64,000 bases of DNA from a virus (Duplodnaviria; Caudoviricetes), in IMG/VR virus record IMGVR_UViG_3300030055_000003. One strand, written 5' to 3'. Positions 3,375 to 57,700 of the stretch are shown here, one piece after another. The number at the start of each line of letters is the position of its first letter. Position 1 is the stretch's first letter. The notes under the pieces were generated by a model. The model searched no databases and was not told where the DNA came from. It saw only the letters and a list, made by a program, of their open reading frames with translations. The position numbers were made by a program, and so were the translations under genes.

Positions 3375-3490
3375 TATTTACTCTCCTTTTCTATTTCTTT
3401 TTTTAATTTATTTACAACCTTTTAAAAGTATGATTTTAACTGAATTTACCAACTTGGGAGGCTAGTAATAGCCCCATTTATAAATCCAAA

Positions 3491-10457: not shown

Positions 10458-13400
10458 TTATAATCTTATTGTCTTACATACATTTTTATATTTATCTAAA
10501 TTCGTATTTTTAATAGTCATTTGTTTAATGTCATCAAGCATTACATTACTTGCATCAGCAAATTGACTAAAGAAATCATTCTTTTCTAGTTCCTTATTCA
10601 CTTCTTCTGTAATTGTTTTAAATATTTTAGATTTATTACTTGAAAATCGTTTGTATACTTGCTTGCTATGTATTTTCTTACCTAAGTATGGAATCTTGTG
10701 ATACCATCTATCATTGATAGTAACCATGTCTCTTAATTCTTGTTCTTTATTTTTATCCATTTCAATCACCTTTCTTATTTAATTAAATATATTATTATCT
10801 TAGTGAAATAACTATATAAAGTCTCTTTTATGATAATAAGTTTCAATATAACTTTTTGATGCCATTTAAGTTTGCATCCTAGCCATGATTCTATGAAATT
10901 TATATCTGTAGTCATTTTATTAATCCTCCTTAACGAAACTAATATTTTCAATGTTTCCAGTTAATACAAATACATTACCTTCACACATTCCTACATCTAA
11001 ACACATTTTACCTTCAACTTCTTGACCTTCTATATCTGTTAATTGCATTGTCACAGGTGTATTTAAGAACTCTTCTAATTGTCCATGTTCTGCATGCCAT
11101 TTCTTATCTTCCTCCAATGTTTCCATTAAATCTTTAATTGTTGGATAGTCTCTAAATCCATTATCTTGTAAATATAATTTAACCTCAGTCACTTTATCTT
11201 TCTCTGCACCAATTACCTTTGCTTGTCTTACTTCCATTTTTAATACACTCTCCTTTATTTATTGTTTTTATGTTCTATTAATTTATTAACTCTTGGTAAA
11301 ATCAGCAATTTATTTGAATATTCGACCTCTGTAAGCTAGTAATAGCCACATTGTTAATTAATCAATTATCTTAATTTCAATATTTTTACCCTTTAATTCA
11401 TGAAATATGTCTTTAACATATAAATCTCCAACTATATAATCGTCTGCTCCATGTCCACCACAATAATCTTCAAATGAAACAGTACCTTTATATTCTTTTT
11501 GAATAGTTGGTATAAAATAATGTTGTTCTAATCGAATTATAAGTTCTTCTTTTGTTGGTATTTTCTCTTTACTTTCATATGGTACTTCTATCTTTTCAGA
11601 CATTGTATTATTAATTTTAGTATTTTCTATTTTAAATTCATATGTAATATCTCTTCCATAATAAGATTCCCAACATGCAGATATATCTATCTTTCTTATA
11701 TTTGATACACTATCATATTTTTTATCTAATTCATTTAATGCACAAGATAAGTTGAATTCAAAATCTTTTGCTAATGGTAGATGAGTTATTTCATGTTCCA
11801 CACAATCTTGCTTATAACTATAGTAATTTTCCTCATCAATTCTTTCTTCAAATACCTTTCCACAATATTCACATACGGCTTGTTTTTTCATAATTCATAT
11901 CTCCTCTATAATTTATTTAACTCTTTACATTATTTCCAATCCTTTAAGTGTTCGATATGTTTCATCATGTAACTTTTTTGCAATATATTTAATTCTTTCT
12001 TCATTTATGTATTTTGAATAATATTCTAGTTCTTTATCAATTTCTTCATTAGTCATCCTTTTTAATTTTTGTAAGGCTAAGGACATTACAAATAATTCTT
12101 CTGATGTCAGTTTAGTTTCTAACTCTACTGAAAATAAGTCTTTAATATTTACATTCACTATTTAATCCACTCCTTAATCATTTATATCTTTTCCCGTCAG
12201 GGAATAAACCACTTAAACTCTTTCGTTTACTTCCGAATAATCCACTAAGGCTCTCAGATTCAGTTTTAAATAATCCAGTAGATTCATAAACTTTTTCATA
12301 TTCTTCTTTTATCTTTTTGCTTTCAACTCCACAACTTGGACATCTTTTAAATATTTCATTAGTTATTAATCCACAATTGCATTTGTAAAATATCATTTAA
12401 TCACTCCTTTTATTCTCCTTTTAAATTCATCATTGCCACATATTTCATCAATAAAATATAAGCCTTTCTCCCAACCATTACCTAATCTACTCATAAACTT
12501 ATAAATCAAATAATGCCCTTTATCTATAATCTTAGATATTTTAATTTCATCTTCACACTCGAATCCACTAATTGTATGTTTGTAAATGAGAATATCTCCT
12601 ATATTTGCAAGTGGCATTTCTTTTCCAATAGATTCACACTCTCTAGCTTTCTTTTCATGTCTGTGTAGATTATGGCATATTCCACATTGATAACATTTTA
12701 CCTCTCTCATTCTTTCACCTTCTTTTTATATTTAGCACATTTAATACTATCTTCTTACATTTCCATATTCGTCATAACCTAATTCTTTAATTGTATTTTG
12801 TTTAGCATATTCTAATATTGTTAATGATTGTTCTTTATTTATTTCACCAATTTGTTTAATCCCTTGTTCTTCAAATTCATCATATATGTAAGTATCCATG
12901 TACTCATTGATGATTGATTTATTATATACGGGTATTACACTTCCAAAACTAAATTGCATTCCATCTGGAGTACAACTAGATTTTCTACAACTCCTATCTA
13001 TAACTAAGAAACCTATTCCTTCTATTTCAGCCTGAAATTCTCCACAATTACATCCATCACAATGCCATCCGTACTCAGTCGTTTCAAGTTCATTTGTCAC
13101 TCTCATCATTTGATAATAATTGAGCGTTACTATATTTTCATTATAATTTTCAACATACTCTTCTTCACTTGTTTCTATATATATATATTCTTTAATAATA
13201 TTTTTCTAGCAATTTTCAAACCTCGTAATTCATTTATTTCGATAGGAAGTCTTTTATTTAAATAATATTGTCTATCTTTTAATTTTAAATAATCTTTATA
13301 TAATAATTTACTAGTCTCTAAATCTTTAAATTCATTTTTAATATTATTAGATTCCTCTGTTAACTTATTAATATTTCTTTTCTTACCATTGTATATAACA

Positions 13401-14068
13401 TCTATTTCTTCTAAAGCTTTGTTTGTTTTGTCGCATCTTTTAATTTCCATTAATTTATTGCTTTCTTCAGATGCATTTTTATATAATTCTTGGAAATTGT
13501 CATTTGAGTTTATAAACTCTTCAAAATTTTTATAACTATCGCTTTTTTCACTATTGTCCCACATCGTACAACCATTTTTAAATTCATATATTTTATCTTT
13601 TGTAAAACGTCCATTACCAGTAGTATAATATTTTCTATCGGTTTTTATAGCCTTAGTCTTAAAATTTATTTTATTCATTATAATCACTCCTTTATTATTT
13701 TCTTAATTTATTAAAAACCCATTAAAACTATTCATTTATTTTGATGTCCGTATTATAAATCAAGAATAATTTTCTATTAAATATTTTTCGATTGATGGTA
13801 TTATAATATCTTTTGCTTTAAATTCTCCCATAAATTCTAATTCCATTGATTCTAAGTCAAAATTGAATTTTTTATTAACAAATACAATTTCTTCATCAAA
13901 TTCATCATATACAATTAGACATATCTGTTTATTTTCAATATCATAATTTACCTCGCATTCAACCTCATCTTCAAAGATATTATATGCTATTCCATTTACT
14001 GCTCTATTAATTGAATCTTTTATTCTTTCCCACATATTATTTCCTCCTTGATTACTATAATATACCAA
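10458..14068 (-). CDS. cluster of about 9 small hypothetical phage proteins (10458, 10920, 11358, 11925, 12178, 12393, 12747, 13175, 13760), several with CxxC zinc motifs
   Basis: ORF track; each has a GGAG-type RBS and they are tightly packed on the minus strand. Confidence 0.6.
10775..10915 (-). CDS. 46-aa ORF resembling the N-terminal Q-motif region of terminase large subunits
   Basis: Hand-translated MTTDINFIESWLGCKLKWHQKVLLKLII.. with GGAGG RBS at 10925-10929; below the ORF-track length cut-off. Confidence 0.5.
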   Translation of the reverse strand: MTTDINFIESWLGCKLKWHQKVILKLIIIKETLYSYFTKIIIYLIK

Positions 14069-38457: not shown

Positions 38458-38559
38458 ATTGATAATCTCCTTCTTATTTTAAATTATTTATTATTTTTTT
38501 ATCTATTAGCCCTAAAATCAAGGGCTTCATCTTTTGTATATAGTTTGTTATTTAATTTA

Positions 38560-39462
38560 TTAAAATGGCAAATCTTCGTCTGTAACTCCACCATTAGTAT
38601 CTTTAGACTTTGAGTCATCTTTTTTGATAATCACTTTATTTTCTACTAAATCTAATGCTTCTCTAATTTCATCTCTTGTATATTTACTCTTTTCATTTTT
38701 CTCAGTATCAATATCTATAACTGATAACACTAACTCTCTTTCTTTAATCTTTTTATAAGTTTTAGTATTATTTCCTCCGATAGTTTTTCCTTTTAATGTT
38801 TTTCTTTCCTTAGTTGGCTCACCACTTTCTACTTCTCCTTCTTCGTAAATAGGTCTGTTATCTACTTTGATAGTAGCATGTAGTAAATCTCCTACTTTTG
38901 CGTTTTCTTCTATGTATTCTTTTACTACATCATCTTCTAAAGATAATTCTAATTCAATCATTTCTCCTTTATATGTAGTTACACCAACTTTCACTAAACC
39001 ATTACTTGCCTTTTCTGTAATTATTATTGCTTGATTTAATTCATTAACTTCTTCAAAACCTTCCGCATTAAAGTCAATTACATCGCTTTTCTTATACATT
39101 TGGCTTACAATCCATGTTAATTTCTTATGATATGTATCAATATCAGCTCTTATATTTAAATATACACTATCACCATCTTTAAAGTTTCCCTTAACAAAAT
39201 CAATTGCTTCTTGTTCATTTAATTCAGTTACTTCATCATCTTGATTAGCTTTTAACTTAACATTAAGTTTTGAATTACTCCAATCTCCTACTTGTACATA
39301 ATTAGTGTTGGTTGTACTACTTTGTAATCCAAATGAAAGATTTCTTTTTACTGAATTAGTGAAAGGTTCTTTGTTGTTTAGTCCCCAAATTTTTCCTTCT
39401 AATCTTAAATATCCTTTAGTTTGTTCCATAATATTTCTCTCCTTCTGACGTTGGCTCGTCAC
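38560..39462 (-). CDS. probable single-stranded DNA-binding protein
   Basis: OB-fold-like beta-rich sequence, acidic C-terminus DEDLPF, position ahead of the recombinase. Confidence 0.65.
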   Translation of the reverse strand: MTSQRQKERNIMEQTKGYLRLEGKIWGLNNKEPFTNSVKRNLSFGLQSSTTNTNYVQVGDWSNSKLNVKLKANQDDEVTELNEQEAIDFVKGNFKDGDSVYLNIRADIDTYHKKLTWIVSQMYKKSDVIDFNAEGFEEVNELNQAIIITEKASNGLVKVGVTTYKGEMIELELSLEDDVVKEYIEENAKVGDLLHATIKVDNRPIYEEGEVESGEPTKERKTLKGKTIGGNNTKTYKKIKERELVLSVIDIDTEKNEKSKYTRDEIREALDLVENKVIIKKDDSKSKDTNGGVTDEDLPF

Positions 39463-39546
39463 CCTAATAATTTGTTTAATATTAATTTATTTATAATACG
39501 CATTTTAGTCTTACAAAACTAATCATTAATGCAATTTTATACTATA

Positions 39547-39843
39547 TTATCTAATTAAATTTTGAAAATTATCATCTGTTACTAAATAGTATTCAGAAGT
39601 ATAAATAATTCCAGATCCTCTAGTTATACTTACTCTTAAATGATGTTCGTCATTTATATCAGCAACTTTTATTTTACAATTTTTAGGCTTATGTATTCCT
39701 TCCATAGTGCCTATAAATTCTCTTTTAGTAGAGTCATCATTATTTAATATGTATTCTTTAAATTCTTCCCAAGTTAAATCTGTTACTTTATACATAATAC
39801 TTTGAAAGTCTTCCTTGTTAATATTACTTTGAATTATATACAT
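39547..39843 (-). CDS. hypothetical protein
   Basis: ORF track; RBS GAAGGTG. Confidence 0.55.
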   Translation of the reverse strand: MYIIQSNINKEDFQSIMYKVTDLTWEEFKEYILNNDDSTKREFIGTMEGIHKPKNCKIKVADINDEHHLRVSITRGSGIIYTSEYYLVTDDNFQNLIR

Positions 39844-39901
39844 CTAATCACCTTCTTAATATTATTTTTAGTTCTATTAATTTGTTGACTTACATTAAAA
39901 T

Positions 39902-40030
39902 TATTCATTTATTGGCTTTTTGTGAACATTATATGAACACAATTCCAATTTATAAGTCCATAAGTTATAACTCTTTAACAAGTCATACTAACTCTTATTG
40001 GATGTAAATGTACACCCTCTATTTCATCTA
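39902..40030 (-). ncRNA. predicted TnpB omegaRNA (scaffold overlapping tnpB 3' end, guide from about 39921-39902)
   Basis: Inferred from known TnpB biology. The putative right end ..GTTCAC (39927-39922) is followed by sequence matching the phage repeat family; the 5' boundary is a guess. Confidence 0.45.
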
Positions 40031-41213
40031 CTTTAAAAGCTTCTGAAAATACCTTTTTAATTATATTATAAGCTCCATTAACATCTGAATTAATTAGTTT
40101 GTTTGTATTAGATTTAAATAAACCTCTTACTACACGTCTGCTTTTATTATATGTATCTTTACCTATTACTTCATTATCTAAAAAACTACAACCACTCGTA
40201 TAACTTTCGTTATTAGTTATTACTTTAATTCCTATATTAGAACACTTATATGTAATCATTTTTATTAATTTATCATATGGAATTGATATAAAATTCTGAT
40301 TAGCTGATTTGAATAAACCACTTTCCTGTTTCCAAGTTTTATTCAAACCAATTACTATGATCGTAATATTTAATCCTTCCGCATAAGTAACTATAGATTT
40401 ACTAGCATTATGTAAATAATAATTTATTTTATTATCTCTATCTTGTTGTAATTTATCTAACTTATTGCTCCAGTCCTTTTTATGTCGTTTCTTTAAATCC
40501 GACTGTAATTTAGCTTTCTTCTTATTGTAATATTGATTTATAGATTTGATAACTTTACCATTTATAATGATAGGTTGTACACCTACATTATTAACGCATG
40601 TAGCTAGGTTATCTACTCCTAAATCAATCCCTAATATTCTGTTATTGAATTCTTTAGGCTCTTGAACTTCAATCTCATAAACTATTTCTAATATGTAAGT
40701 TGAACCTTTTGGAATAATTCTAGTTTGTAATAGTTTATTTTTAACATTGGTTTTAAATAAGTTATTCAGTCCTTTTAGTGGTATAAAAGCAAAGTATAAA
40801 TATCCATCATATAAATGGGTTTGCATATTAGTCATTATAAAAATATGTCTACCATTTTTCTTTTTATATCTAGGTAATTTTGGTTTTCCAAGATATTTGT
40901 TTGGATGTTTCCAATAATCTTTTACACTTACTAAGAATGACTTCCAATCTTTACAAAGCAATCTCAATGTCATTTGTGCTGAATTTGAACCTATATCTTT
41001 GAAAGCCTCAGTCTTATTAAGTTCCTTTGACAACTCCACATATTGTAATATTGGACTACCTCTTACAAATAATTGTCTTTGAGTATAATTCGCTAGATTG
41101 TAAATGTTCTTAGCTTTAAAACAATACTCATCAAACAATTTCCATGCTTTGTGGTTTTTATCTATTATATGTCTTTCGACTCTTTGAGTTTTAATGTTAT
41201 CACCTCCTTTCAA
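39922..41213 (-). mobile_element. orphan IS200/IS605-family (IS1341-like) element with tnpB only
   Basis: tnpB without tnpA; right end TTCAC; flank resumes as a truncated intergenic repeat; left end not recognisable (21 bp to the upstream gene). Confidence 0.65.
39975..41213 (-). CDS. tnpB: TnpB RNA-guided endonuclease, RuvC-II-rearranged type
   Basis: KNIYNLAN, PKLPRYKKK, ILGIDLGVDNLA (RuvC-I), IVIGLNKTWKQ (Gly at the canonical Glu), NESYTS, INSDVNGAYNI (RuvC-III). Likely start ATT at 41195 behind AAGGAGGTGA. Confidence 0.93.
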   Translation of the reverse strand: MKGGDNIKTQRVERHIIDKNHKAWKLFDEYCFKAKNIYNLANYTQRQLFVRGSPILQYVELSKELNKTEAFKDIGSNSAQMTLRLLCKDWKSFLVSVKDYWKHPNKYLGKPKLPRYKKKNGRHIFIMTNMQTHLYDGYLYFAFIPLKGLNNLFKTNVKNKLLQTRIIPKGSTYILEIVYEIEVQEPKEFNNRILGIDLGVDNLATCVNNVGVQPIIINGKVIKSINQYYNKKKAKLQSDLKKRHKKDWSNKLDKLQQDRDNKINYYLHNASKSIVTYAEGLNITIIVIGLNKTWKQESGLFKSANQNFISIPYDKLIKMITYKCSNIGIKVITNNESYTSGCSFLDNEVIGKDTYNKSRRVVRGLFKSNTNKLINSDVNGAYNIIKKVFSEAFKVDEIEGVHLHPIRVSMTC

Positions 41214-41234
41214 TCTTGTGTCATTTTTCTTTAA

Positions 41235-41546
41235 TTACTCTACTTTTACTTCAACCCAATCTTCGGCTAATGTATCAGCTTGACTAGCATTCCAAGGAAT
41301 AACTGTATTTCCTGCTGTCTTTAATAATAAGAAATTTTCAAGTTTATATGTAGTTTTACCTACTCCTACTTCAACAATTCCTTGTAATTCAGAAACATCA
41401 TATAACTCTTCTGTAAAATTCTCATCAGCTTTCATTTTTAATGTTGAGAAATAGAAACTAAATACATGCATTCCTTTTCCATTCCAACCTTCTCTAGCTA
41501 TTGGTTTACCTTGTTTAGTTAATTCTACTGCTTTTCCAAAATTCAT
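41235..41546 (-). CDS. tad2: DUF2829 / Tad2-family anti-defence sponge protein
   Basis: MNFGKAV..GKPIAREGWNGKGM..LKTAGNTVIPWNASQADTLAEDW matches the DUF2829 consensus. Confidence 0.82.
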   Translation of the reverse strand: MNFGKAVELTKQGKPIAREGWNGKGMHVFSFYFSTLKMKADENFTEELYDVSELQGIVEVGVGKTTYKLENFLLLKTAGNTVIPWNASQADTLAEDWVEVKVE

Positions 41547-41598
41547 AATTTATTTCTCCTTTTCTTCTATTAATTTATTTAAGCATTCTTAATTTGTT

Positions 41599-41745
41599 AA
41601 TATGCTTTAAAGAATAGCTGAATTTACCGTTTCAGCACATTCTCCGATTTAAGCAATTGGTACTAACTTAAAAATCTTGGGTATCAACCTTTGAGAGTTC
41701 TTCTTTCCCTATTGAGTAGTCATTAGCTACTCTTTAAAACATATT
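41599..41745 (-). ncRNA. structured non-coding element, copy 1 (unknown family)
   Basis: 21-bp terminal inverted repeat (41599-41619 / 41725-41745) with internal hairpins; homologous to 44410-44511. Confidence 0.55.
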
Positions 41746-41823
41746 ATCCTGTTTATATTAATTTATTTCACTTAATCTTTTATGTATGTTGTGGTAAAGG
41801 TGTTATTCTCTACCACAACTGTT

Positions 41824-41852
41824 ATTTTACTCTCTTATTTATTACTTGTCAA
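41824..41852 (-). promoter_or_regulatory. consensus sigmaA promoter driving element 1, tad2 and tnpB
   Basis: TTGACA, 17 bp, TAAAAT; inverted repeat 41788-41819 starts 4 bp downstream. Confidence 0.8.
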
Positions 41853-41870
41853 CTACTTCTATTAATTTAT

Positions 41871-42263
41871 TTAATTGTCTAATTCATCTATCATCTTTTG
41901 AATTTCTTCTGCTGACTTACCTTTTAAATCCTCATTCTTTTTTAAGTCTAAAGCTTCTAATAATTTTTGCTTTTGTTCTTTTTTAGCTTTAGCATCTTCT
42001 CTTGATTTGGATTCAGCTTGTTTTATTTTAACTATATGTTTTACAATTTCAATTTTCATATCTAATTCTTCATCTTTTTGTGTTTTAGTATCTAATAAGC
42101 TTTCTTCCTCCACTTGTTTTAGTTGTGAATTCAATCCTTTAAAAATTGTATCTAAATCTTTAACTGATAATGACCATAACTCTTCTACTGGTTGTTGTCC
42201 TCTAAAATCAAACCTAAATTTATTCCTACTAGCTACCTCAAAAACATTCTTTTCTGTGTTCAT
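41871..42263 (-). CDS. conserved phage hypothetical protein (partner of the 683-aa ORF)
   Basis: FEVASRNKFRF..VEELWSL..LD..K pattern I recognise from large phages; adjacent to 42299-44350. Confidence 0.65.
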   Translation of the reverse strand: MNTEKNVFEVASRNKFRFDFRGQQPVEELWSLSVKDLDTIFKGLNSQLKQVEEESLLDTKTQKDEELDMKIEIVKHIVKIKQAESKSREDAKAKKEQKQKLLEALDLKKNEDLKGKSAEEIQKMIDELDN

Positions 42264-42298
42264 AATTAATCATTCTCCTTCTTATTTATTAATTTATT

Positions 42299-44350
42299 TT
42301 AAAATTTAATTTTTAGTATACGTTCTGTTTGTCCTATTGCTTTAACTACCAATTCATTTCTTTTAGTAGAACTAAATCCTAATCCTGATAGTTGGTCATC
42401 AACTTCTTTTACTGCCATCTTACTACCCAATGCTTCAAATACTCTTTTTTGTTTCATTAAGTCTTCTTTTAAGAACTCGTTATAGAATCCATTTGGCTTC
42501 TCTGAATTAACACAATCTTTCAACATAAAGAAGTAATGTCTATGACCAATTCCTTGTTGTTCATCCCAGTAATTAGGTGAATACATAACAACTCCTGTTG
42601 GTATAAATTGATTTGTTTTTAAATTCCATACTTCTTTTGAAGAAACACTTGATGGTAATAACTCTTTAATAGTAAAACCTGTTTCTCTATTAAAATTGAC
42701 TTCTGCAACCATTACATTTTCTTTATTTTTTAATTCTCTATTATAATCAAAAGAGTATATTTGTCCATCAAATTCTATTTCTGCTTTAAATCCTGTTCTT
42801 CCTCCTCTATTAGCATAGTTATGAACAAAGAATTTATATGTCCCTTCTTTCATCTTATTTTTATCAGTCCATGTTATATTTTCAACTGCTGGAATTCCAT
42901 GTTTTGGACTTTGAATATCTATATCTAATTCTCCAGTAGTATTCCTATTACAACTATTACTAAAATAAATTTCATTTCCATTTGGTTCATAACAATGAGC
43001 ATCTAAATCATTTCCATCATATTCTTCATCATTCCATTGAATAGAAAATCTTAATATACCATCTACATTACCACCTGCTGATTTAACTCTATCTTTCATA
43101 GAACTGTCTGTTATATTACCTGAATAAGCCCAACTAAAAGGATTGTTCCATTTAAACATTGTCTTAGCATCTTTATTCTCTGGTGCTATCAATGAAACCA
43201 TATTGCTAGAATGTTTATTCTCAAGATAAACTTCAAGTTCCTTTGTTGTAGGTAATACATTCTTTACAAAATCTTCTATTGCAATTTCTTCAACCTTTGA
43301 GAATTTCTTAGGATTAATAGGAATTGAACTTGACATTTCATCAAATATATTTGTATTTTGTATTCTCTTAGCTGAGTCCTTGTTTGAGAATAATATATTA
43401 TTTACAGAAATATCATCTAAAGTTCCATGTCTTCTTGGTAAAGAATCTAAGTAGCCTAAATCTTCTATTGTTTTCTTAGCATCTTCTAACATTTTTTTAG
43501 TAAAAATAGCCTTTGGACGTTTGTAGTTTTCAGGAGCAATTATCGCTTCATATTTTCTTACTGCCGTATCTAAATCCATTCCTTCACTTATATTTATAAG
43601 TAATGTTCCTATTGAATGGTTTTTAATTCTTCCAATTGAACCACCAACTTTTACTGATTGTTCCCAAGCATAAGTTTCTTTCTCTTCTTGTGTTTGTAAT
43701 TCATCATAAGCTTTCTTGTATTTAAGGAATTCATTTAAAACGCCTTTCCATTCTTCACCTTTGTATAATGTATTAGATGATATTAATTCTAATACTGTTA
43801 AAAGTGATTCTTCTGAAATTTCATCTAATGACCTTTTAAATACATTTCTTGTATCTCTATAAGTTCCTTTTAAATCACCTTCTGATCTACTACTTCTATC
43901 AACAAATTTATCTGGTAATTCTAAGTAGAAATGTTCATATTTATTTATTGAACCGTCTTCTAATAATTCTCTATTACTATCAGTACCAATATTCTTAAAT
44001 TTGCTAATATAAATATCTGTAATGGCTTTTGATTTAACATATTCAGATAATGCATTTGCCACTGGTTGGAAGGTTGTACTATTTGCATCAAAATCCCATA
44101 TTGTAGTTAGTTCATTATTTTTAATAATAACTGCATTTCCAATACTCTTAATGAATTGTCTACAACAACTACAATCATATTCTCTTCTTTGTCTGTAAAG
44201 TTCATTTGTACCTTCTGGAAAACTGTCTAAGTAAATATTCCATAATTCATCTTTATCTACGTTCACCTCAAATAAGCAATCTGCATCCTTTGTGATTTGT
44301 TTAAAGTTTTCTTGTAACACCTTTTTAAAATTTTTAAATTCCATTTTCAT
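42299..44350 (-). CDS. large conserved phage protein with a YfaP/DUF2135-like C-terminal region
   Basis: [41 protein letters not shown]; function unknown. Confidence 0.65.
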
Positions 44351-44409
44351 TCACTCCTTTATTTTATATGTATATTTTATTTTCCCTTTAATTTATTGAG
44401 CATTTATTT

Positions 44410-44511
44410 AATATGCTTTGCTGAGTAGGTTAACTGTTACATTAACACTACTTTTGAAAGGAGTTTTCTATGAAACTTTTGAGTAGTTTATTCTACTCAG
44501 CAAAACATATT
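44410..44511 (-). ncRNA. structured non-coding element, copy 2 (unknown family)
   Basis: 19-bp terminal inverted repeat (44410-44428 / 44493-44511) with the same AATATGYTTT ends and GAGTAG/CTACTC hairpin as copy 1. Confidence 0.55.
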
Positions 44512-44755
44512 CTATTAATTTATTCTTACCACTCTTTAACTATATCACATACAATTTCATTTGTAAAGTGTTTATTTCTATTAATTTGTTAAGTCTTGCT
44601 AAAACATACTTTTTATTGGCTTTTTCGACTTCTACATCCTAGTGTTTAAGCCATTCTTAAAATCTGTTAATTTGATAATTCTTAGTATTTTTATTAATTT
44701 ATTAACAATTATATTTTATGTAAGTGGTAAGTTTGTTATTCCTTACCACTTCTTC

Positions 44756-44785
44756 ATCTTATCATATTTACTAATTACTTGTCAA
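44756..44785 (-). promoter_or_regulatory. sigmaA-type promoter upstream of element 2
   Basis: TTGACA, 18 bp, TAAGAT; inverted repeat 44722-44751 starts 4 bp downstream. Confidence 0.6.
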
Positions 44786-44863
44786 TATAATTTTATTAAT
44801 TTATTGATAATTAAATGTTATACAGGCTACATATATTAAACATAGCCCCCATTTTATAATATA

Positions 44864-54731: not shown

Positions 54732-57700
54732 TTAATAATCATCTACTTGCCAAGTTATTGTTTCAAATAATACTTTACCTACACCTTTATTAGTCAAACT
54801 AACTACACTTGTATCATTTTCATATAATTTACATTTAGTATTCCTATATGGGAATCTCGTATCATTATCTAGTTCTCTCTTATAACATGTATAACAACTA
54901 GATAATCCATATTCATCATCACTATCGTTACTGCAATGTCCACATAATAAACAGTTATGCATAAGACTACCTCCTATTTCAATCCTAATAATTTACTTGT
55001 AGCAGAAATATCACCTTTAGTTTCAAAGTAAGTATATGTTGCACTTGTTTTTATTGGTTCTCCTAACATACAAGCTATTTCAACTATTGCTGGTCTTTCT
55101 GATTTATTTGATAATTTAATTCTTGTATACTCTTCTTTATCTTTTTTAAATAATCTTAATTCCATTTTATTCACTCCTTTTCTATTTTTATTTACTTTTA
55201 ATTTATTAAATCTTGATAAAATACATTTTTTATGTGCTTTTATAAGGGCTAGAACTATGTAATAGCCCCATTGTTGTTTTTATTACTTTCGTTTCATTCT
55301 ATAATCATTTCCTATACTTACTTCACTTTCTCCTAGACTTAGGTAATATTTGGGAATCTTATTATATTCCTCAACTACTTTTTCATAACCTAATTTATTT
55401 AATAGTTCACATAAAAGTATATCTGCTTCACTGTGTTTTCTAAAGTTTACTTCAGGTTCTAATTTTTTAATTTTATCCACATAGATCTCTTCAAGTTTCA
55501 TTTTTAATTCCTCCTTTTTTCTTTTATTCAGTCTCAACTATTTTACTTAATTCATCTAAAAATTCTGTCAATGTATCTTCTATGTATGTAAAAGTTCCAT
55601 TAATTGAATATGTATTAGTTTCTTCTTTGATTTCATTTTCTAAGCTTTCGTCATTTAATACATTATTTCTGCCTGCATATTCTGTAGTAGTTTGCTTTAC
55701 ATTTAATATACAATTATCTTTATCAATGTTTAAATTATATATTACTTCAAATTCATAGGTAGTTCCTACACCTCCAAAATGATAAGCATTATGATTTATT
55801 AAGACCTCATACTTTTTATAAATTTCAGCTCCAGTATAATGATTTATTTCGGCTAAATCACACATTCTATTATATTCATCAGTTTCTTCTGTTGTCGGTT
55901 CTCTATCATTATATTCTGATATATTCCAATATTCATATTTATAACTATCCGACATATCTGTAACATGGTCAAATTTTCTTTTATAGCTATCAAATAACCT
56001 TTCAATATCTTTATTATCATAATATCTTTCATCTTCAAGATATCCAATTTTACCTTCAATATGTTCAATATGTTTATTTATCATCTCTGCTAAAATATCT
56101 ATATCTTTCTCACTATTATAATTTGCAGAGTAACCAATATTTTTATTAAACATAGTGTCTTTTAAAATACTACTTAGAGATACATAGCACCCATAATCAT
56201 GACTAATTATTAAATATGATTTTATTTTAGGTTTGCTAGGTTGTGAAATTTCTAAATTCCCAATGCATCTAATTGGATTAAATGTAAAATCATTTTCTAT
56301 TACATCAAACCCTTTCTCTCTTAATAGTTTAGGTAATGTAAAATATAGTCCAAATTCTTCTTTTATATATTCATCATATGTATGATTTAGTAAATATTTA
56401 AATTGTTTAAATCTAGTATCACCTGTATTTTGACACCATAAATCACAATAGAAATCTACTACTTGTCCATCTGTTTTATTTGTTAATTCTAGAACTTGAA
56501 GTATTGTTCCTAAATCAGGATCATAAAGTAAGTTTCTAATTTTCACATTCCATTTGTCATTAGAACAATAGTAATATTCCTCAGCATCATAATAGTTACC
56601 ATCTGTATCTTGTGGTGTAAATTTATCTATTTTTAATCCTAATGATAAAATCATTTCAACTTCTCTTGAATCAATATCATATTCTGTAGTTGTTCTAGCT
56701 TCTACCTTTTCAGCTTCTTGTTTAATTTGCTTTTCTTCTATAATAGAATTTTCTTTTAATGATTCTGTAGTTCTTTGTAACATTTCTTTTAAATCCATAA
56801 TAATTCATTCTCCTTTAATTGTTTATATTTTATCTATATACTAAATTTATTATTTCTTTCTATTTGAATAGCAATTTCTATCTTTGAATAAACAATATTT
56901 ATTTCTATAAAGATAGCTACATCTAGTTGGTATTTGATTACATTTTACAAATCCATATCTTAATGCAATAAAGAAATTAACTATAGGATTTCTTATATAT
57001 GTATACCATAGATTACTAACTGACGGGCATTCTTTCTCACATTTATAACAATAATCAAAATTGTTTTTATGTTTACAAAATACATGGTTAAATTTTTGAT
57101 TCATATGTATCATTCCTTTCCATTTTATATAATTTATTAAAAGCACTTAAAACTAATAGTTTAACTGCTTGTACAAGTCTGTAAAGCTAGTAATAGAGCC
57201 ATTTTAAATTATAACTTTCCCATTTGATTAAGTTTTTCTTTAGTTTTAATTTTATTTTCTTCATAAATGGTAATTATATCTTCAAATCCAATTTCATTTT
57301 TATAACTGTTAATATATTGGTCAGCAACTTCTTCTGTTATCTTACTCATCATAAATAACCCTAATATTGTAGTTGTAATTCCTTGTTTTATTCCATTATA
57401 GTAACTTTCTTTTACTAAATCATTATACATAATCTGTTACTCCTTATATTTCATACTTAGTTATAATTTGTTTAGGTTGTGGAACTACTACTTGTCCTTT
57501 AATAATCATATAATATGAACCATCAACACTCCAAGGCATTTCTGTAGTTGTGTTATCTAAATATGTAGCACCTTCAGTCCAATCACTATTTAACCATGAT
57601 TCCAATTCCTGTTTATTATAATATGTGATTTTTGTTTCTCCATCATCGTTACAATATAATACCATATACTCTTTATTCATCTTAATTTTCCTCCTCAACT

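What the first reader, a model, noticed from the sequence alone, without database searches (positions are those of the whole stretch)
39874..39975. TnpB inserted into the phage's own repeat family; predicted guide matches another copy
Seen: after the putative right end GTTCAC (39927-39922) the flank reads AAAAAGCCAATAAA-TGAATAATTTTAATG..CAACAAATTAATAG, the 3' half of the intergenic repeat. The first 14 nt are identical to the intact copy at 44625-44612 (preceded by AAGTCG), and a further stretch resembles 13720-13742. Known: the TnpB guide is the right flank and its TAM-proximal 12 nt or so form the seed. Inference: the RNP is programmed against a multi-copy regulatory element, so it could cut many sites in related phages (super-homing or competitor exclusion) or bind and regulate its own genome; self-cutting would have to be avoided by TAM mismatch.
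Basis: partly seen in the sequence, partly recalled or inferred. Interest (0 to 1): 0.68.

Follow-up and report, generated by a model that had tools for sequence, protein, structure and literature searches.

The report
Phage TnpB guide start was misplaced

Summary
The sequence facts hold. GTTCAC is at 39927-39922. AAAAAGCCAATAAA occurs exactly twice (39921-39908 and 44625-44612; 0.01 expected). A 19-mer recurs at 13739-13721. The flank belongs to a real, strand-specific repeat family.

About 48 TnpB relatives share one 3' architecture: a terminal hairpin with covarying stems, an invariant AT(A/G)AAT, six variable bases, then TTTNRW. In the window that hairpin is 39948-39912, so GTTCAC is its loop and 3' arm, and AAAAAGCCAAT is its 3' arm. 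A covariance model built without the window puts its best hit at 39938-39893.

A TnpB-less orthologous allele (L085) is homologous only from 39906 onward. The guide therefore most likely starts at 39906 (GAATAATTTTAATG...), or less likely at 39897-39894.

The guide's seed is the hypervariable part of the repeat. No second perfect site exists in the 141-kb record; the best is 13736-13721, with 13 of the first 14 bases matching.

The gene is an intact IS607-clade TnpB without TnpA or a left end. It sits at the same place in all 24 contigs read. Other agents of this scan have reported phage-borne IS607-type TnpBs on other DNA.

One point stays unexplained: the right-end tail has the same consensus as the phage's TnpB-less gene-upstream motif.

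The parts
39975..41213 (-). tnpB open frame (412 codons from the TTG at 41213). The probable start is the ATT at 41195-41193, behind AAGGAGGTGA. RuvC triad: D197, relocated E336 (NNESYTS) and D377.
   Evidence: Pfam OrfB_IS605 8.9e-20 and Cas12f1-like TNB 3.9e-9. A profile of 24 relatives hits ISDra2 TnpB structures 8bf8/8exa/8h1j at about 7e-9. D/E/D are kept in 120 of 121 relatives, and Gly is invariant at the canonical Glu position. L276 has ATG where the window has ATT.
40000..40017 (-). Scaffold hairpin inside the ORF (GGGTGTA catt TACATCC). It encodes the conserved ...EGVHLHP... segment.
   Evidence: Present in all relatives, with compensatory variants such as GGGTGCAGGTTCACACCC and GGGTGTAGATTTACACCC. 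Folded in the MFE structure.
39912..39948 (-). Terminal scaffold hairpin ('hairpin B'): TTGG AA TTGTG (ttcatataatgtt) CACAA AAAG CCAA.
   Evidence: MFE and centroid fold. A stem occupies the same place in 49 loci, with at least 15 different stem sequences. RNAalifold: all 5 pairs show double-sided changes, with GC<->AU in 14-15 of 35 sequences. L239 has GAAGTTTAC/GTAAACTTC and L278 an 11-bp stem at the same place.
39907..39912 (-). ATAAAT ('P1'): the family-invariant motif after the last hairpin, and the most likely last bases of the scaffold and right end.
   Evidence: T-5, A-2 and T-1 are invariant, and A-6 and A-3 occur in 46 of 48 loci. It is homologous in position to ATAACCT, after which multi-copy IS607 relatives diverge. 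L085 homology starts right after it.
39887..39906 (-). Most likely guide-encoding flank (GAATAATTTTAATGTAAGTC). It comprises the variable spacer N6 (39906-39901), the T-rich box TTTTAA (39900-39895) and the next 8 bases.
   Evidence: 13 of 13 bases are identical with the TnpB-less ortholog L085, and 12 of 12 with the TnpB-bearing ortholog L276. In the alternative reading the right end runs through N6+TTT and the guide starts at 39897-39894.
39872..39886 (-). Promoter-like core AACAAATTAATAGAA of the repeat family, upstream of the 98-aa gene.
   Evidence: The motif TTTTA-N(8-16)-AWAWATTAAWAK lies upstream of at least 15 genes, all on the gene-sense strand. See also families D1-D13.
39893..39938 (-). 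Best match in the whole window to covariance model R1, built from 35 relatives' right ends without the window's own sequence.
   Evidence: 23.9 bits, E 0.16, the top of 26 weak hits over 128 kb. The 44625 copy is not among the hits up to E 10.
44599..44650 (-). TnpB-less repeat copy holding the identical 14-mer: TGGCTT (24 nt) AAGCCA, ATAAAA, AGTATG, TTTTAG, followed by the core AACAAATTAATAGAA.
   Evidence: There is no significant similarity to the tnpB 3' region beyond the repeat itself (local alignment score 77; shuffles 53.6 +/- 8, maximum 79).
13721..13739 (-). TnpB-less repeat copy ATAAATGAATAGTTTTAAT. It is the closest in-genome match to the corrected guide: 13 of the first 14 bases, with the mismatch at guide position 6.
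41235..41546 (-). Tad2-like gene directly upstream. Only 21 nt separate its stop from the tnpB frame, so there is no room for a left end.
   Evidence: Pfam PF11195, 2.5e-21. It is absent from the orthologous allele L276, where the same structured leader runs straight into tnpB.
39547..39843 (-). 98-aa gene downstream, used as the anchor for orthologous alleles.
   Evidence: 70% identical copy in L085 without a neighbouring tnpB. The same gene follows tnpB in L276.

Best explanation
Window 39975-41213 (minus strand) encodes an intact TnpB of the IS607-associated clade, probably active as a nuclease. It survives as a gene-plus-guide-RNA cassette in a Clostridium-type phage of about 250 kb.

The omegaRNA gene overlaps the end of the ORF. 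It continues through hairpins to a terminal hairpin (39948-39912), followed by the invariant AUAAAU (39912-39907).

The guide is the next 16-20 nt, most likely from 39906 (GAAUAAUUUUAAUGUAAG...). These bases are native phage DNA: the variable spacer and T-rich box of a bipartite motif (ATAAAW-N6-TTTTAW) that precedes the promoter-like core of many genes of this phage.

The TAM-proximal seed is the spacer that differs from copy to copy. The RNP would therefore recognise only its own site type, namely TnpB-less alleles of the region upstream of the 98-aa gene in related phages such as L085, and not the repeat family as a whole. The inferred job is the usual one for TnpB: cutting vacant alleles in co-infecting relatives so that the cassette is copied in or the rival is damaged.

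The identity with 44625-44612 reflects the shared consensus between the right-end tail and the phage's gene-upstream repeat, not a guide-target pair.

Shown: the anatomy, the conservation, the covariation and the orthologous alleles. Inferred: the exact junction, the TAM, and cleavage and homing.
For: - TnpB identity and conserved D-E-D triad.
- IS607 clade: relatives of about 50% identity lie directly behind a Resolvase+HTH serine recombinase.
- Common 3' architecture in about 48 loci: hairpin, AT(A/G)AAT, N6, TTTNRW.
- Covariation in the terminal hairpin. Closest relatives in other gene contexts carry compensatory stems: L239 at 86% and L278 at 80%.
- The window hairpin folds as predicted.
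- Model R1, built without the window, has its top hit at 39938-39893.
- The boundary after ATAAAT has three supports. Multi-copy IS607 relatives diverge right after hairpin + ATAACCT. The TnpB-less ortholog L085 shares GAATAATTTTAAT and nothing upstream of it. The paralogous TnpB-less site at 13739 shares ATAAATGAATAGTTTTAAT.
- No second perfect target for any candidate guide in 141 kb.
- N6 differs among all repeat copies.
- No TnpA and only one tnpB in the record.
- The identical protein sits in the same context in all 24 contigs read.
Against: - Four pairs of near-identical elements in different downstream contexts share N6+TTT and diverge only at +10 to +12. Their identity over the last 400 nt is 99%, 98%, 98% and 89%. 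This fits a right end that runs 9-12 nt further, with the guide starting at 39897-39894.
- AUAAAU followed by a perfect guide match also exists at the cassette's own junction. If AUAAAU-like motifs are the TAM, self-cleavage must be avoided in a way I could not identify.
- No RNA data, TAM data or cleavage data exist.
- No TnpB-less allele of this very phage was found. L085 is from a relative, and the gene content upstream of the junction differs, so its homology break could be a recombination border rather than the element border.
- Model R1's E-value (0.16) is modest.
Confidence: 0.7

Rival explanations
1. The right end runs through the spacer and the T-rich box (...AUAAAU-GAAUAA-UUU(UAA)). 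The guide then starts at about 39897-39894 ((U)AAUGUAAGUCAACAAAUU...). In this reading TTTNRW is a transposon-encoded end motif resembling T-rich TAMs such as TTTAT, TTGAT and TTCAT, and N6 is an unconstrained linker.
For: - Four near-identical element pairs share N6 and TTT, then diverge at +10 to +12.
- +7 to +12 is conserved in 44-47 of 48 loci, even where an RBS follows within 10-15 nt, so it is not a promoter box there.
- N6 similarity tracks element relatedness.
- TAM/TEM pairs of similar sequence are known (PMC10055086, PMC10690162).
Against: - GAATAATTTTAAT is present without tnpB in the ortholog L085, and as GAATAGTTTTAAT at 13739.
- IS607 relatives with TnpA end right after the hairpin + 7 nt, and their flanks show no TTT box.
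- All four pairs differ inside the box itself (+10 to +12).
- Because TTT is near-invariant in every locus, only the shared N6 is informative.
Confidence: 0.22
2. The right end is GTTCAC at 39922, the guide is AAAAAGCCAAUAAAUG..., and the RNP targets or binds the copy at 44625-44612 and other members of the repeat.
For: - An exact 14-nt match that chance does not explain.
- Other TnpB-less copies share the AAAA-SC(M)A-ATAAA consensus, so the repeat homology does extend up to about 39921.
Against: - 39921-39912 pairs with 39948-39938 in a hairpin that is conserved by structure in about 48 relatives.
- The 85-86% relatives L276 and L239 keep ...CCAATAAAT in different or orthologous contexts, with compensatory stem changes.
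- L085 homology starts at 39906.
- Identity with 44625 stops after 14 nt, short of a 16-20-nt guide (2 mismatches within 16).
Confidence: 0.04
3. The TnpB-less copies of AAAA-SC(M)A-ATAAAW-N6-TTTTAW are linked to the element in one of three ways. They may be relics of lost TnpB right ends. They may be preferred landing pads (TAM plus target half-site). Or they may be PeSL-like regulatory cassettes at which gene modules, tnpB included, are exchanged by recombination. This is compatible with the best explanation and concerns the origin of the shared consensus.
For: - The right-end tails of about 48 relatives and the phage's TnpB-less motif have the same consensus.
- The motif is strand-specific and far over-represented: 18 overlapping matches against 0.27 expected in the record, and 5 against 0.4 in 259 kb of other TnpB-bearing phage loci.
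- The region between the 130-aa and 98-aa genes differs in gene content among relatives: tad2+tnpB, tnpB alone, or three other ORFs.
- Element pairs break at the motif.
- PeSL cassettes are documented in T4-type phages (PMC2839356, PMC4122927).
Against: - Model R1 does not find the TnpB-less copies, apart from a weak hit at 13720-13757 (15.3 bits, E about 5).
- No tnpB remnants lie next to the 44625 copy.
- Hairpins upstream of the TnpB-less copies are inconsistent.
- The short A/T-rich words are common in this genome: the bare ATRAAW-N6-TTTNRW occurs 32 times against 13 expected.
Confidence: 0.2
4. A domesticated, TldR-like RNA-guided repressor that binds the promoter region downstream of its own gene, or paralogous promoters, instead of cutting DNA.
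For: - The guide lies in a promoter-like region.
- The cassette is fixed in the phage population and has no transposase or left end.
- The weak ATT start is odd for a selfish nuclease.
Against: - The catalytic D-E-D triad is kept in 120 of 121 relatives, the window's protein included.
- The protein is full length.
- Relatives belong to bona fide IS607 elements.
Confidence: 0.05

Closest known systems
IS607-family TnpB-omegaRNA elements (e.g. Clostridium botulinum CboIStron TnpB; PMC10690162)
   Same: - TnpB relatives of about 50% identity sit behind a serine-recombinase TnpA.
- The guide RNA scaffold overlaps the 3' end of tnpB and ends at the right end.
- The last scaffold bases resemble a motif also found upstream of the element. 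In Cbo this is UCGG against the TAM TGGG.
- The expected role is cutting vacant sites to drive homing.
   Different: - No TnpA, no recognisable left end and no intron here.
- The end motif is A/T-rich (AUAAAU) instead of G-rich.
- An extra conserved TTTNRW box lies 6 nt beyond the end motif.
- The cassette is a single copy fixed in a phage.
- The TAM is unknown.
IS200/IS605 TnpB (ISDra2, ISGst2) as RNA-guided homing nucleases (PMC10055086)
   Same: - Protein superfamily: the profile hits 8bf8/8exa.
- The guide is taken from the DNA just outside the right end.
- The TAM/TEM logic is the same.
- T-rich five-base motifs (TTTAT, TTGAT) look like the TTTNRW box seen here.
   Different: - The RuvC-II glutamate is relocated and the zinc-finger cysteines are largely lost.
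- No Y1 transposase and no matching left and right subterminal hairpins.
- The Rfam omegaRNA-type families do not match.
Phage-borne IS607-type TnpB cassettes and orphan omegaRNA scaffolds reported by other agents of this scan on other DNA (e1-5347786, e1-5369569, e1-1935064)
   Same: - A TnpB without usable transposon ends, wedged between phage genes.
- First-reader borders that had to be moved.
- The proposed use against sister phages.
   Different: - Here there are no orphan full scaffolds: model R1 finds only the tnpB-linked copy.
- The scaffold is not RAGATH-18-like by Rfam.
- The repeated element shares only the short right-end tail.
PeSLs, the promoter-early/stem-loop cassettes of T4-type phages (PMC2839356, PMC4122927)
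   Same: A short composite regulatory motif repeated in front of many small genes, on the coding strand, in a region whose gene content differs between close relatives.
   Different: - A different sequence and a different host group.
- The stem-loop part is inconsistent here.
- A role in recombination was not tested.
TldR (nuclease-dead TnpB-like repressors; PMC10705468)
   Same: A TnpB-family protein with a fixed guide next to a promoter, and no transposase.
   Different: The catalytic residues are conserved here, so it does not meet the defining loss of nuclease residues.

Membership tests
TnpB / Cas12f superfamily | OrfB_IS605 (RuvC) and TNB domains | tested here: met
   Pfam PF01385 8.9e-20 and PF07282 3.9e-9, both above their cut-offs. 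The profile hits ISDra2 TnpB and Cas12f structures.
TnpB / Cas12f superfamily | RuvC catalytic triad D-E-D | tested here: met
   D197, E336 (the relocated 'NNESYTS' glutamate, with Gly at the canonical site) and D377 are conserved in 120 of 121 relatives. Activity itself was not tested.
TnpB / Cas12f superfamily | Structured omegaRNA scaffold overlapping the 3' end of tnpB and ending at the right end | tested here: met
   Conserved hairpins with compensatory changes. The window's copy is the top hit of model R1. The RNA itself has not been observed.
TnpB / Cas12f superfamily | TAM-dependent, guide-dependent DNA cleavage | not testable with these tools
   This needs TAM-library and interference assays.
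IS607-family insertion sequence | Serine-recombinase TnpA encoded next to tnpB | tested here: not met
   No match to the relatives' TnpA in the 141-kb record. The gene upstream is tad2. Relatives L213 and L248 do have it.
IS607-family insertion sequence | Recognisable left end and right end bounding a mobile unit | tested here: not met
   A right-end-like tail is present. However, only 21 nt lie between the tad2 stop and the tnpB frame, and homology with L276 begins at the RBS.
IS607-family insertion sequence | Evidence of mobility (several copies, or presence/absence at one site) | tested here: not met
   A single copy in the record. The identical protein has the same neighbours in all 24 contigs read. 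Only inter-lineage differences are seen (L085, L276).
IS200/IS605 (Y1 TnpA) element | Matching subterminal hairpins at both ends, with a TAM at the left flank and a TEM at the right tip | tested here: inconclusive
   The right end has a hairpin, ATAAAT and a TTTNRW box. There is no left hairpin in the window, and the upstream hairpins of relatives do not resemble their right hairpins.
Known Rfam omegaRNA/TnpB-linked RNA families (e.g. RAGATH-18, IS605-orfB motifs) | Match to the covariance model | tested here: not met
   No hit at gathering score in the window. Only chance-level hits appear in 39780-40400 up to E 10.
TldR (nuclease-dead TnpB-like repressor) | Loss of RuvC catalytic residues | tested here: not met
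   The triad is conserved.
PeSL-like regulatory cassette (for the repeat family) | Composite promoter plus stem-loop repeated at gene boundaries and marking rearrangement break points | tested here: inconclusive
   The motif is repeated and strand-specific upstream of genes, and gene content varies between relatives at this spot. The stem-loops are inconsistent, and promoter activity and break points were not tested.

The most novel reading that the evidence does not exclude
This clade of phage-borne IS607-type TnpBs has co-evolved with a gene-upstream motif of its host phages (AAAA-SC(M)A-ATAAAW-N6-TTTTAW). The right-end tail reproduces the motif's left half, so an insertion keeps the downstream gene's regulatory architecture intact. 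The many TnpB-less copies serve as TAM-bearing landing pads, or as recombination points for cassette exchange. The RNP tells the copies apart only by the six-base spacer at the seed, and base +1 (never A at 48 right-end junctions) marks self from target.
Probability: 0.15. Interest if true: 0.6.

Novelty: new member of a known kind. Interest (0 to 1): 0.33.

Why it matters
The attractive idea of a phage nuclease whose guide is aimed at the phage's own multi-copy regulatory element rested on a boundary set 15 nt (or more) too early, and it does not survive comparison with relatives.

What remains is another gene-only, IS607-type TnpB cassette living between phage genes next to an anti-defence gene (tad2). 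It most probably acts as an RNA-guided homing or competition nuclease. It adds a well-defined 3' architecture for this clade: a covarying terminal hairpin, AUAAAU, a six-base variable spacer and a T-rich box. That architecture can be used to place guide starts correctly in other phage genomes.

One open point deserves a bench test: the right-end tail and the phage's own gene-upstream motif share a consensus.

Tried and rejected
- Megablast of 38500-42300 against GenBank phages: no match.
- Rfam at gathering score and at E up to 10: nothing relevant.
- phmmer of the single protein against PDB: no hit. Only the profile worked.
- RNA evidence: no RNA holder listed.
- Pairing of the N6 spacer with the upstream scaffold (a pseudoknot idea): no excess over permuted controls.
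- N6 repeated at the left junction (the overlap of a site-specific recombination): not seen in the window, L008, L006, L177 or L184 (read).
- A hairpin formed between N6 and the bases after the T-rich box: not consistent (read).
- Weak AUAAA/UUUAU pairing: no covariation (read).
- Orphan scaffold at 44625: not found by model R1, and local alignment to the tnpB 3' region is not above the shuffles.
- Empty allele of this same phage: look-ups of the exact TnpB, 98-aa and Tad2 proteins returned only the occupied arrangement.
- Exact proteins P0035 and P0072 are likewise fixed in one context each.
- The 18-nt corrected guide scanned in IMG/VR: three chance hits inside unrelated ORFs.
- Empty sites for the L008 and L006 elements in the window's genome: those regions are not conserved or not held.
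- TAM from left flanks: ATAAAT precedes several relatives' RBS, but there it is part of the promoter-like core, so no TAM can be called.

Full report
**What is there.** The window is the minus strand of G000:71600-135599. G000 is an IMG/VR virus record of 140,944 nt, estimated 57% complete. Contigs carrying the identical tnpB reach 248-250 kb.

On the window's minus strand, 39975-41213 is an open frame of 412 codons. It matches OrfB_IS605 (8.9e-20) and the Cas12f1-like TNB domain (3.9e-9). A profile of 24 relatives reaches the ISDra2 TnpB structures and Cas12f.

Among 121 aligned relatives:
- D197 (GIDLG), E336 (NNESYTS) and D377 (NSDVNGA) are kept in 120.
- Gly is invariant where canonical TnpBs have the RuvC-II glutamate.

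This is the 'relocated glutamate' type and looks catalytically competent.

The upstream gene is Tad2-like. Only 21 nt separate its stop from the tnpB frame. The likely start is the ATT at 41195, behind AAGGAGGTGA; the 85% relative L276 has ATG at that codon. The record holds one tnpB and no TnpA.

**Checking the observation.**
- The 14-mer AAAAAGCCAATAAA occurs exactly twice, at 39921-39908 and 44625-44612, against 0.01 expected.
- ATAAATGAATA(A/G)TTTTAAT is shared by 39912-39894 and 13739-13721, against 0.01 expected.
- The flank belongs to a repeat family (D1-D3).
- TTTTA-N(8-16)-AAATTAATAG-type cores lie upstream of at least 15 genes.
- The extended motif AA..SC(M)A-ATAAAW-N6-TTTNRW gives 18 overlapping matches against 0.27 expected, marking 7 distinct sites, all on the gene-sense strand. 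The 44625 copy reads TTTTAG, so the pattern misses it.

**Where the right end is.** I collected relatives from viral contigs, metagenomes, genomes and the protein collection. I lined up the DNA after their stop codons. About 48 non-redundant loci share one architecture:
- a hairpin inside the ORF;
- a hairpin spanning the stop codon;
- TCTAATAAAT;
- a terminal hairpin;
- AT(A/G)AAT, with T-5, A-2 and T-1 invariant;
- six variable bases, in which +1 is never A;
- TTT[T/G/C][A/G][T/A], with T in 44-47 of 48 loci.

The terminal stem has at least 15 different sequences. RNAalifold finds double-sided changes at all five pairs it predicts, with GC<->AU in 14-15 of 35 sequences.

In the window the stem is TTGG AA TTGTG / CACAA AAAG CCAA (39948-39912), and it appears in the MFE and centroid folds. 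GTTCAC (39927-39922) is therefore the end of the loop plus the start of the 3' arm. AAAAAGCCAAT is the rest of that arm.

The closest relatives confirm this with compensatory changes:
- L239 (86% protein identity, followed by a different 158-aa gene) has GAAGTTTAC ... GTAAACTTC, then CAATAAAT GATCAA TTTTAT.
- L278 (80%) has an 11-bp stem.
- L279 (78%) has a 7-bp stem at the same place.

A covariance model built from 35 relatives without the window's sequence has its best hit in the window's 128 kb of searched strand at 39938-39893 (23.9 bits, E 0.16). It does not report the 44625 copy.

**Orthologous alleles.** L085 comes from the same 194-kb phage contig that carries the 77% TnpB elsewhere. 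It has the syntenic 683-aa and 130-aa genes and a 70% identical 98-aa gene, but three other small ORFs in place of tad2 and tnpB. Upstream of the 98-aa gene its similarity to the window begins at GAATAATTTTAAT (window 39906-39894). The preceding bases are TCTTAAAA, not GCCAATAAAT.

L276 (85% TnpB) has the same leader, tnpB and 98-aa gene but no tad2. It reads ...AAAACCCAATAAAT GAATAA TTTTAA.

L085 does so.

**How far the right end runs.** Two readings remain.

(a) The scaffold ends with AUAAAU at 39907 and the guide starts at 39906. Three things support this:
- L085.
- The TnpB-less paralog at 13739.
- Homology with true IS607 elements. Relatives of about 50% identity in Thermoanaerobacter and Caldanaerobacter-type genomes lie behind a Resolvase+HTH TnpA. 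Their copies diverge right after the terminal hairpin plus ATAACCT, and their flanks are unconstrained.

(b) The end runs through N6 and TTT. Four pairs of near-identical elements (99, 98, 98 and 89% over the last 400 nt) in different downstream contexts share N6+TTT and diverge at +10 to +12. The T-rich box is also conserved where an RBS follows within 10-15 nt.

Against (b), TTT is near-invariant everywhere, so only the shared N6 counts. All four pairs also differ inside the box itself.

I put (a) at roughly two to one over (b). Under either reading, 39921-39908 is scaffold.

The literature gives a precedent for a scaffold end that resembles the neighbouring motif. In the IS607-type CboIStron the scaffold ends UCGG and the TAM is TGGG (PMC10690162). 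IS605 elements have paired TAM and TEM motifs such as TTTAT (PMC10055086).

**What the guide can hit.** I scanned the whole 141-kb record with the candidate guides.
- The 16-mer from 39906 has no second site with fewer than 2 mismatches. The only site matching in register with the repeat is 13736-13721: 13 of the first 14 bases, with the mismatch at position 6.
- Guides starting at 39897 or 39894 have only scattered matches with 2-4 mismatches.

The six TAM-proximal bases of guide (a) are the part of the repeat that differs in every copy. The RNP would therefore be specific for its own site type, not for the family.

The L085-type allele keeps 13 of 13 TAM-proximal bases. It is a plausible natural target in a co-infecting relative; this is inference. 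The 18-mer guide finds only chance hits in IMG/VR.

**Mobility.** The exact TnpB, Tad2 and 98-aa proteins occur together in all 24 contigs read for each. Two other exact relatives are also fixed in one context each. There is no left end and no TnpA. The cassette behaves as a resident gene whose presence varies only between lineages.

**The unexplained part.** The right-end tail consensus of the TnpB clade is an A-rich loop..CC(A)A, AT(A/G)AAT, N6 and TTTNRW. The TnpB-less motif of this phage has the same consensus. Similar TnpB-less sites are mildly enriched in other TnpB-bearing phage loci: 5 against 0.4 expected.

That shared consensus, not a guide-target relation, explains the 14-nt identity. 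Ten of the fourteen positions are near-invariant in the family.

Three origins remain open: relic right ends, preferred landing pads, or PeSL-like cassettes at which gene modules recombine (PMC2839356, PMC4122927).
- The copies are not full orphan scaffolds.
- Base +1 is never A at 48 right-end junctions, but it is A in 4 of 14 TnpB-less copies that I read. This hints at a self/non-self mark.

**Verdict.** Its headline claim, a guide matching another copy and thus multi-copy targeting, fails.

The object is a new member of a known kind. Other agents of this scan have reported phage-borne IS607-type TnpB cassettes on other DNA.

Noticed in passing
window 41193-41213 (minus strand): tnpB probably starts at an ATT codon (41195-41193), 6 nt behind AAGGAGGTGA. 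The 85% relative L276 has ATG at the same codon. This would make it a rare start codon that may keep the nuclease level low.
   Followed up: partly
L276:1119-1500 versus window 41547-41870: The structured leader that precedes tad2 in the window runs directly into tnpB in the related phage L276, which has no tad2. Tad2 is thus the variable insert between the leader and tnpB.
   Followed up: partly
window 44351-44863 (minus strand): An unusually long (about 510 nt) non-coding stretch before the 683-aa gene. It holds a sigma-70-like TTGACA-N17-TATGAT, a hairpin GTGGTAAG...CTTACCAC, three AATAAATTAATA cores and the 44625 repeat copy.
   Followed up: no
window 3423-3483, 11297-11357, 57148-57208: A second small repeat (family D4) with the hairpin GGCTA-TTAC-TAGCC (minus-strand reading). 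It lies 25-45 nt upstream of some copies of the gene-upstream motif. A related GGGCTA...TAGCCC hairpin sits before the 55233 copy.
   Followed up: no
48 TnpB right-end junctions (loci): The first base after the invariant AT(A/G)AAT is never A (G 20, T 20, C 8). The six-base spacer is richer in G+C than its surroundings.
   Followed up: partly
L215 and L252 (Caldanaerobacter-type IS607 relatives): The same 10 bases, TCTTCAGCCT, flank both ends of the element. Such a direct repeat is not expected for IS607-family insertions.
   Followed up: no
L191:4254-4300: In this relative the six-base spacer after the right-end motif is GGAGGG. It appears to serve as the ribosome-binding site of the next gene, a ribonucleotide-reductase-like ORF starting MKVVKRNGTIVSFDE.
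   Followed up: no
protein collection: The closest named relatives (78%, 69%, 68%) are annotated in Clostridium botulinum, C. perfringens and Clostridium sp. This suggests a Clostridium-type host for the phage.
   Followed up: no
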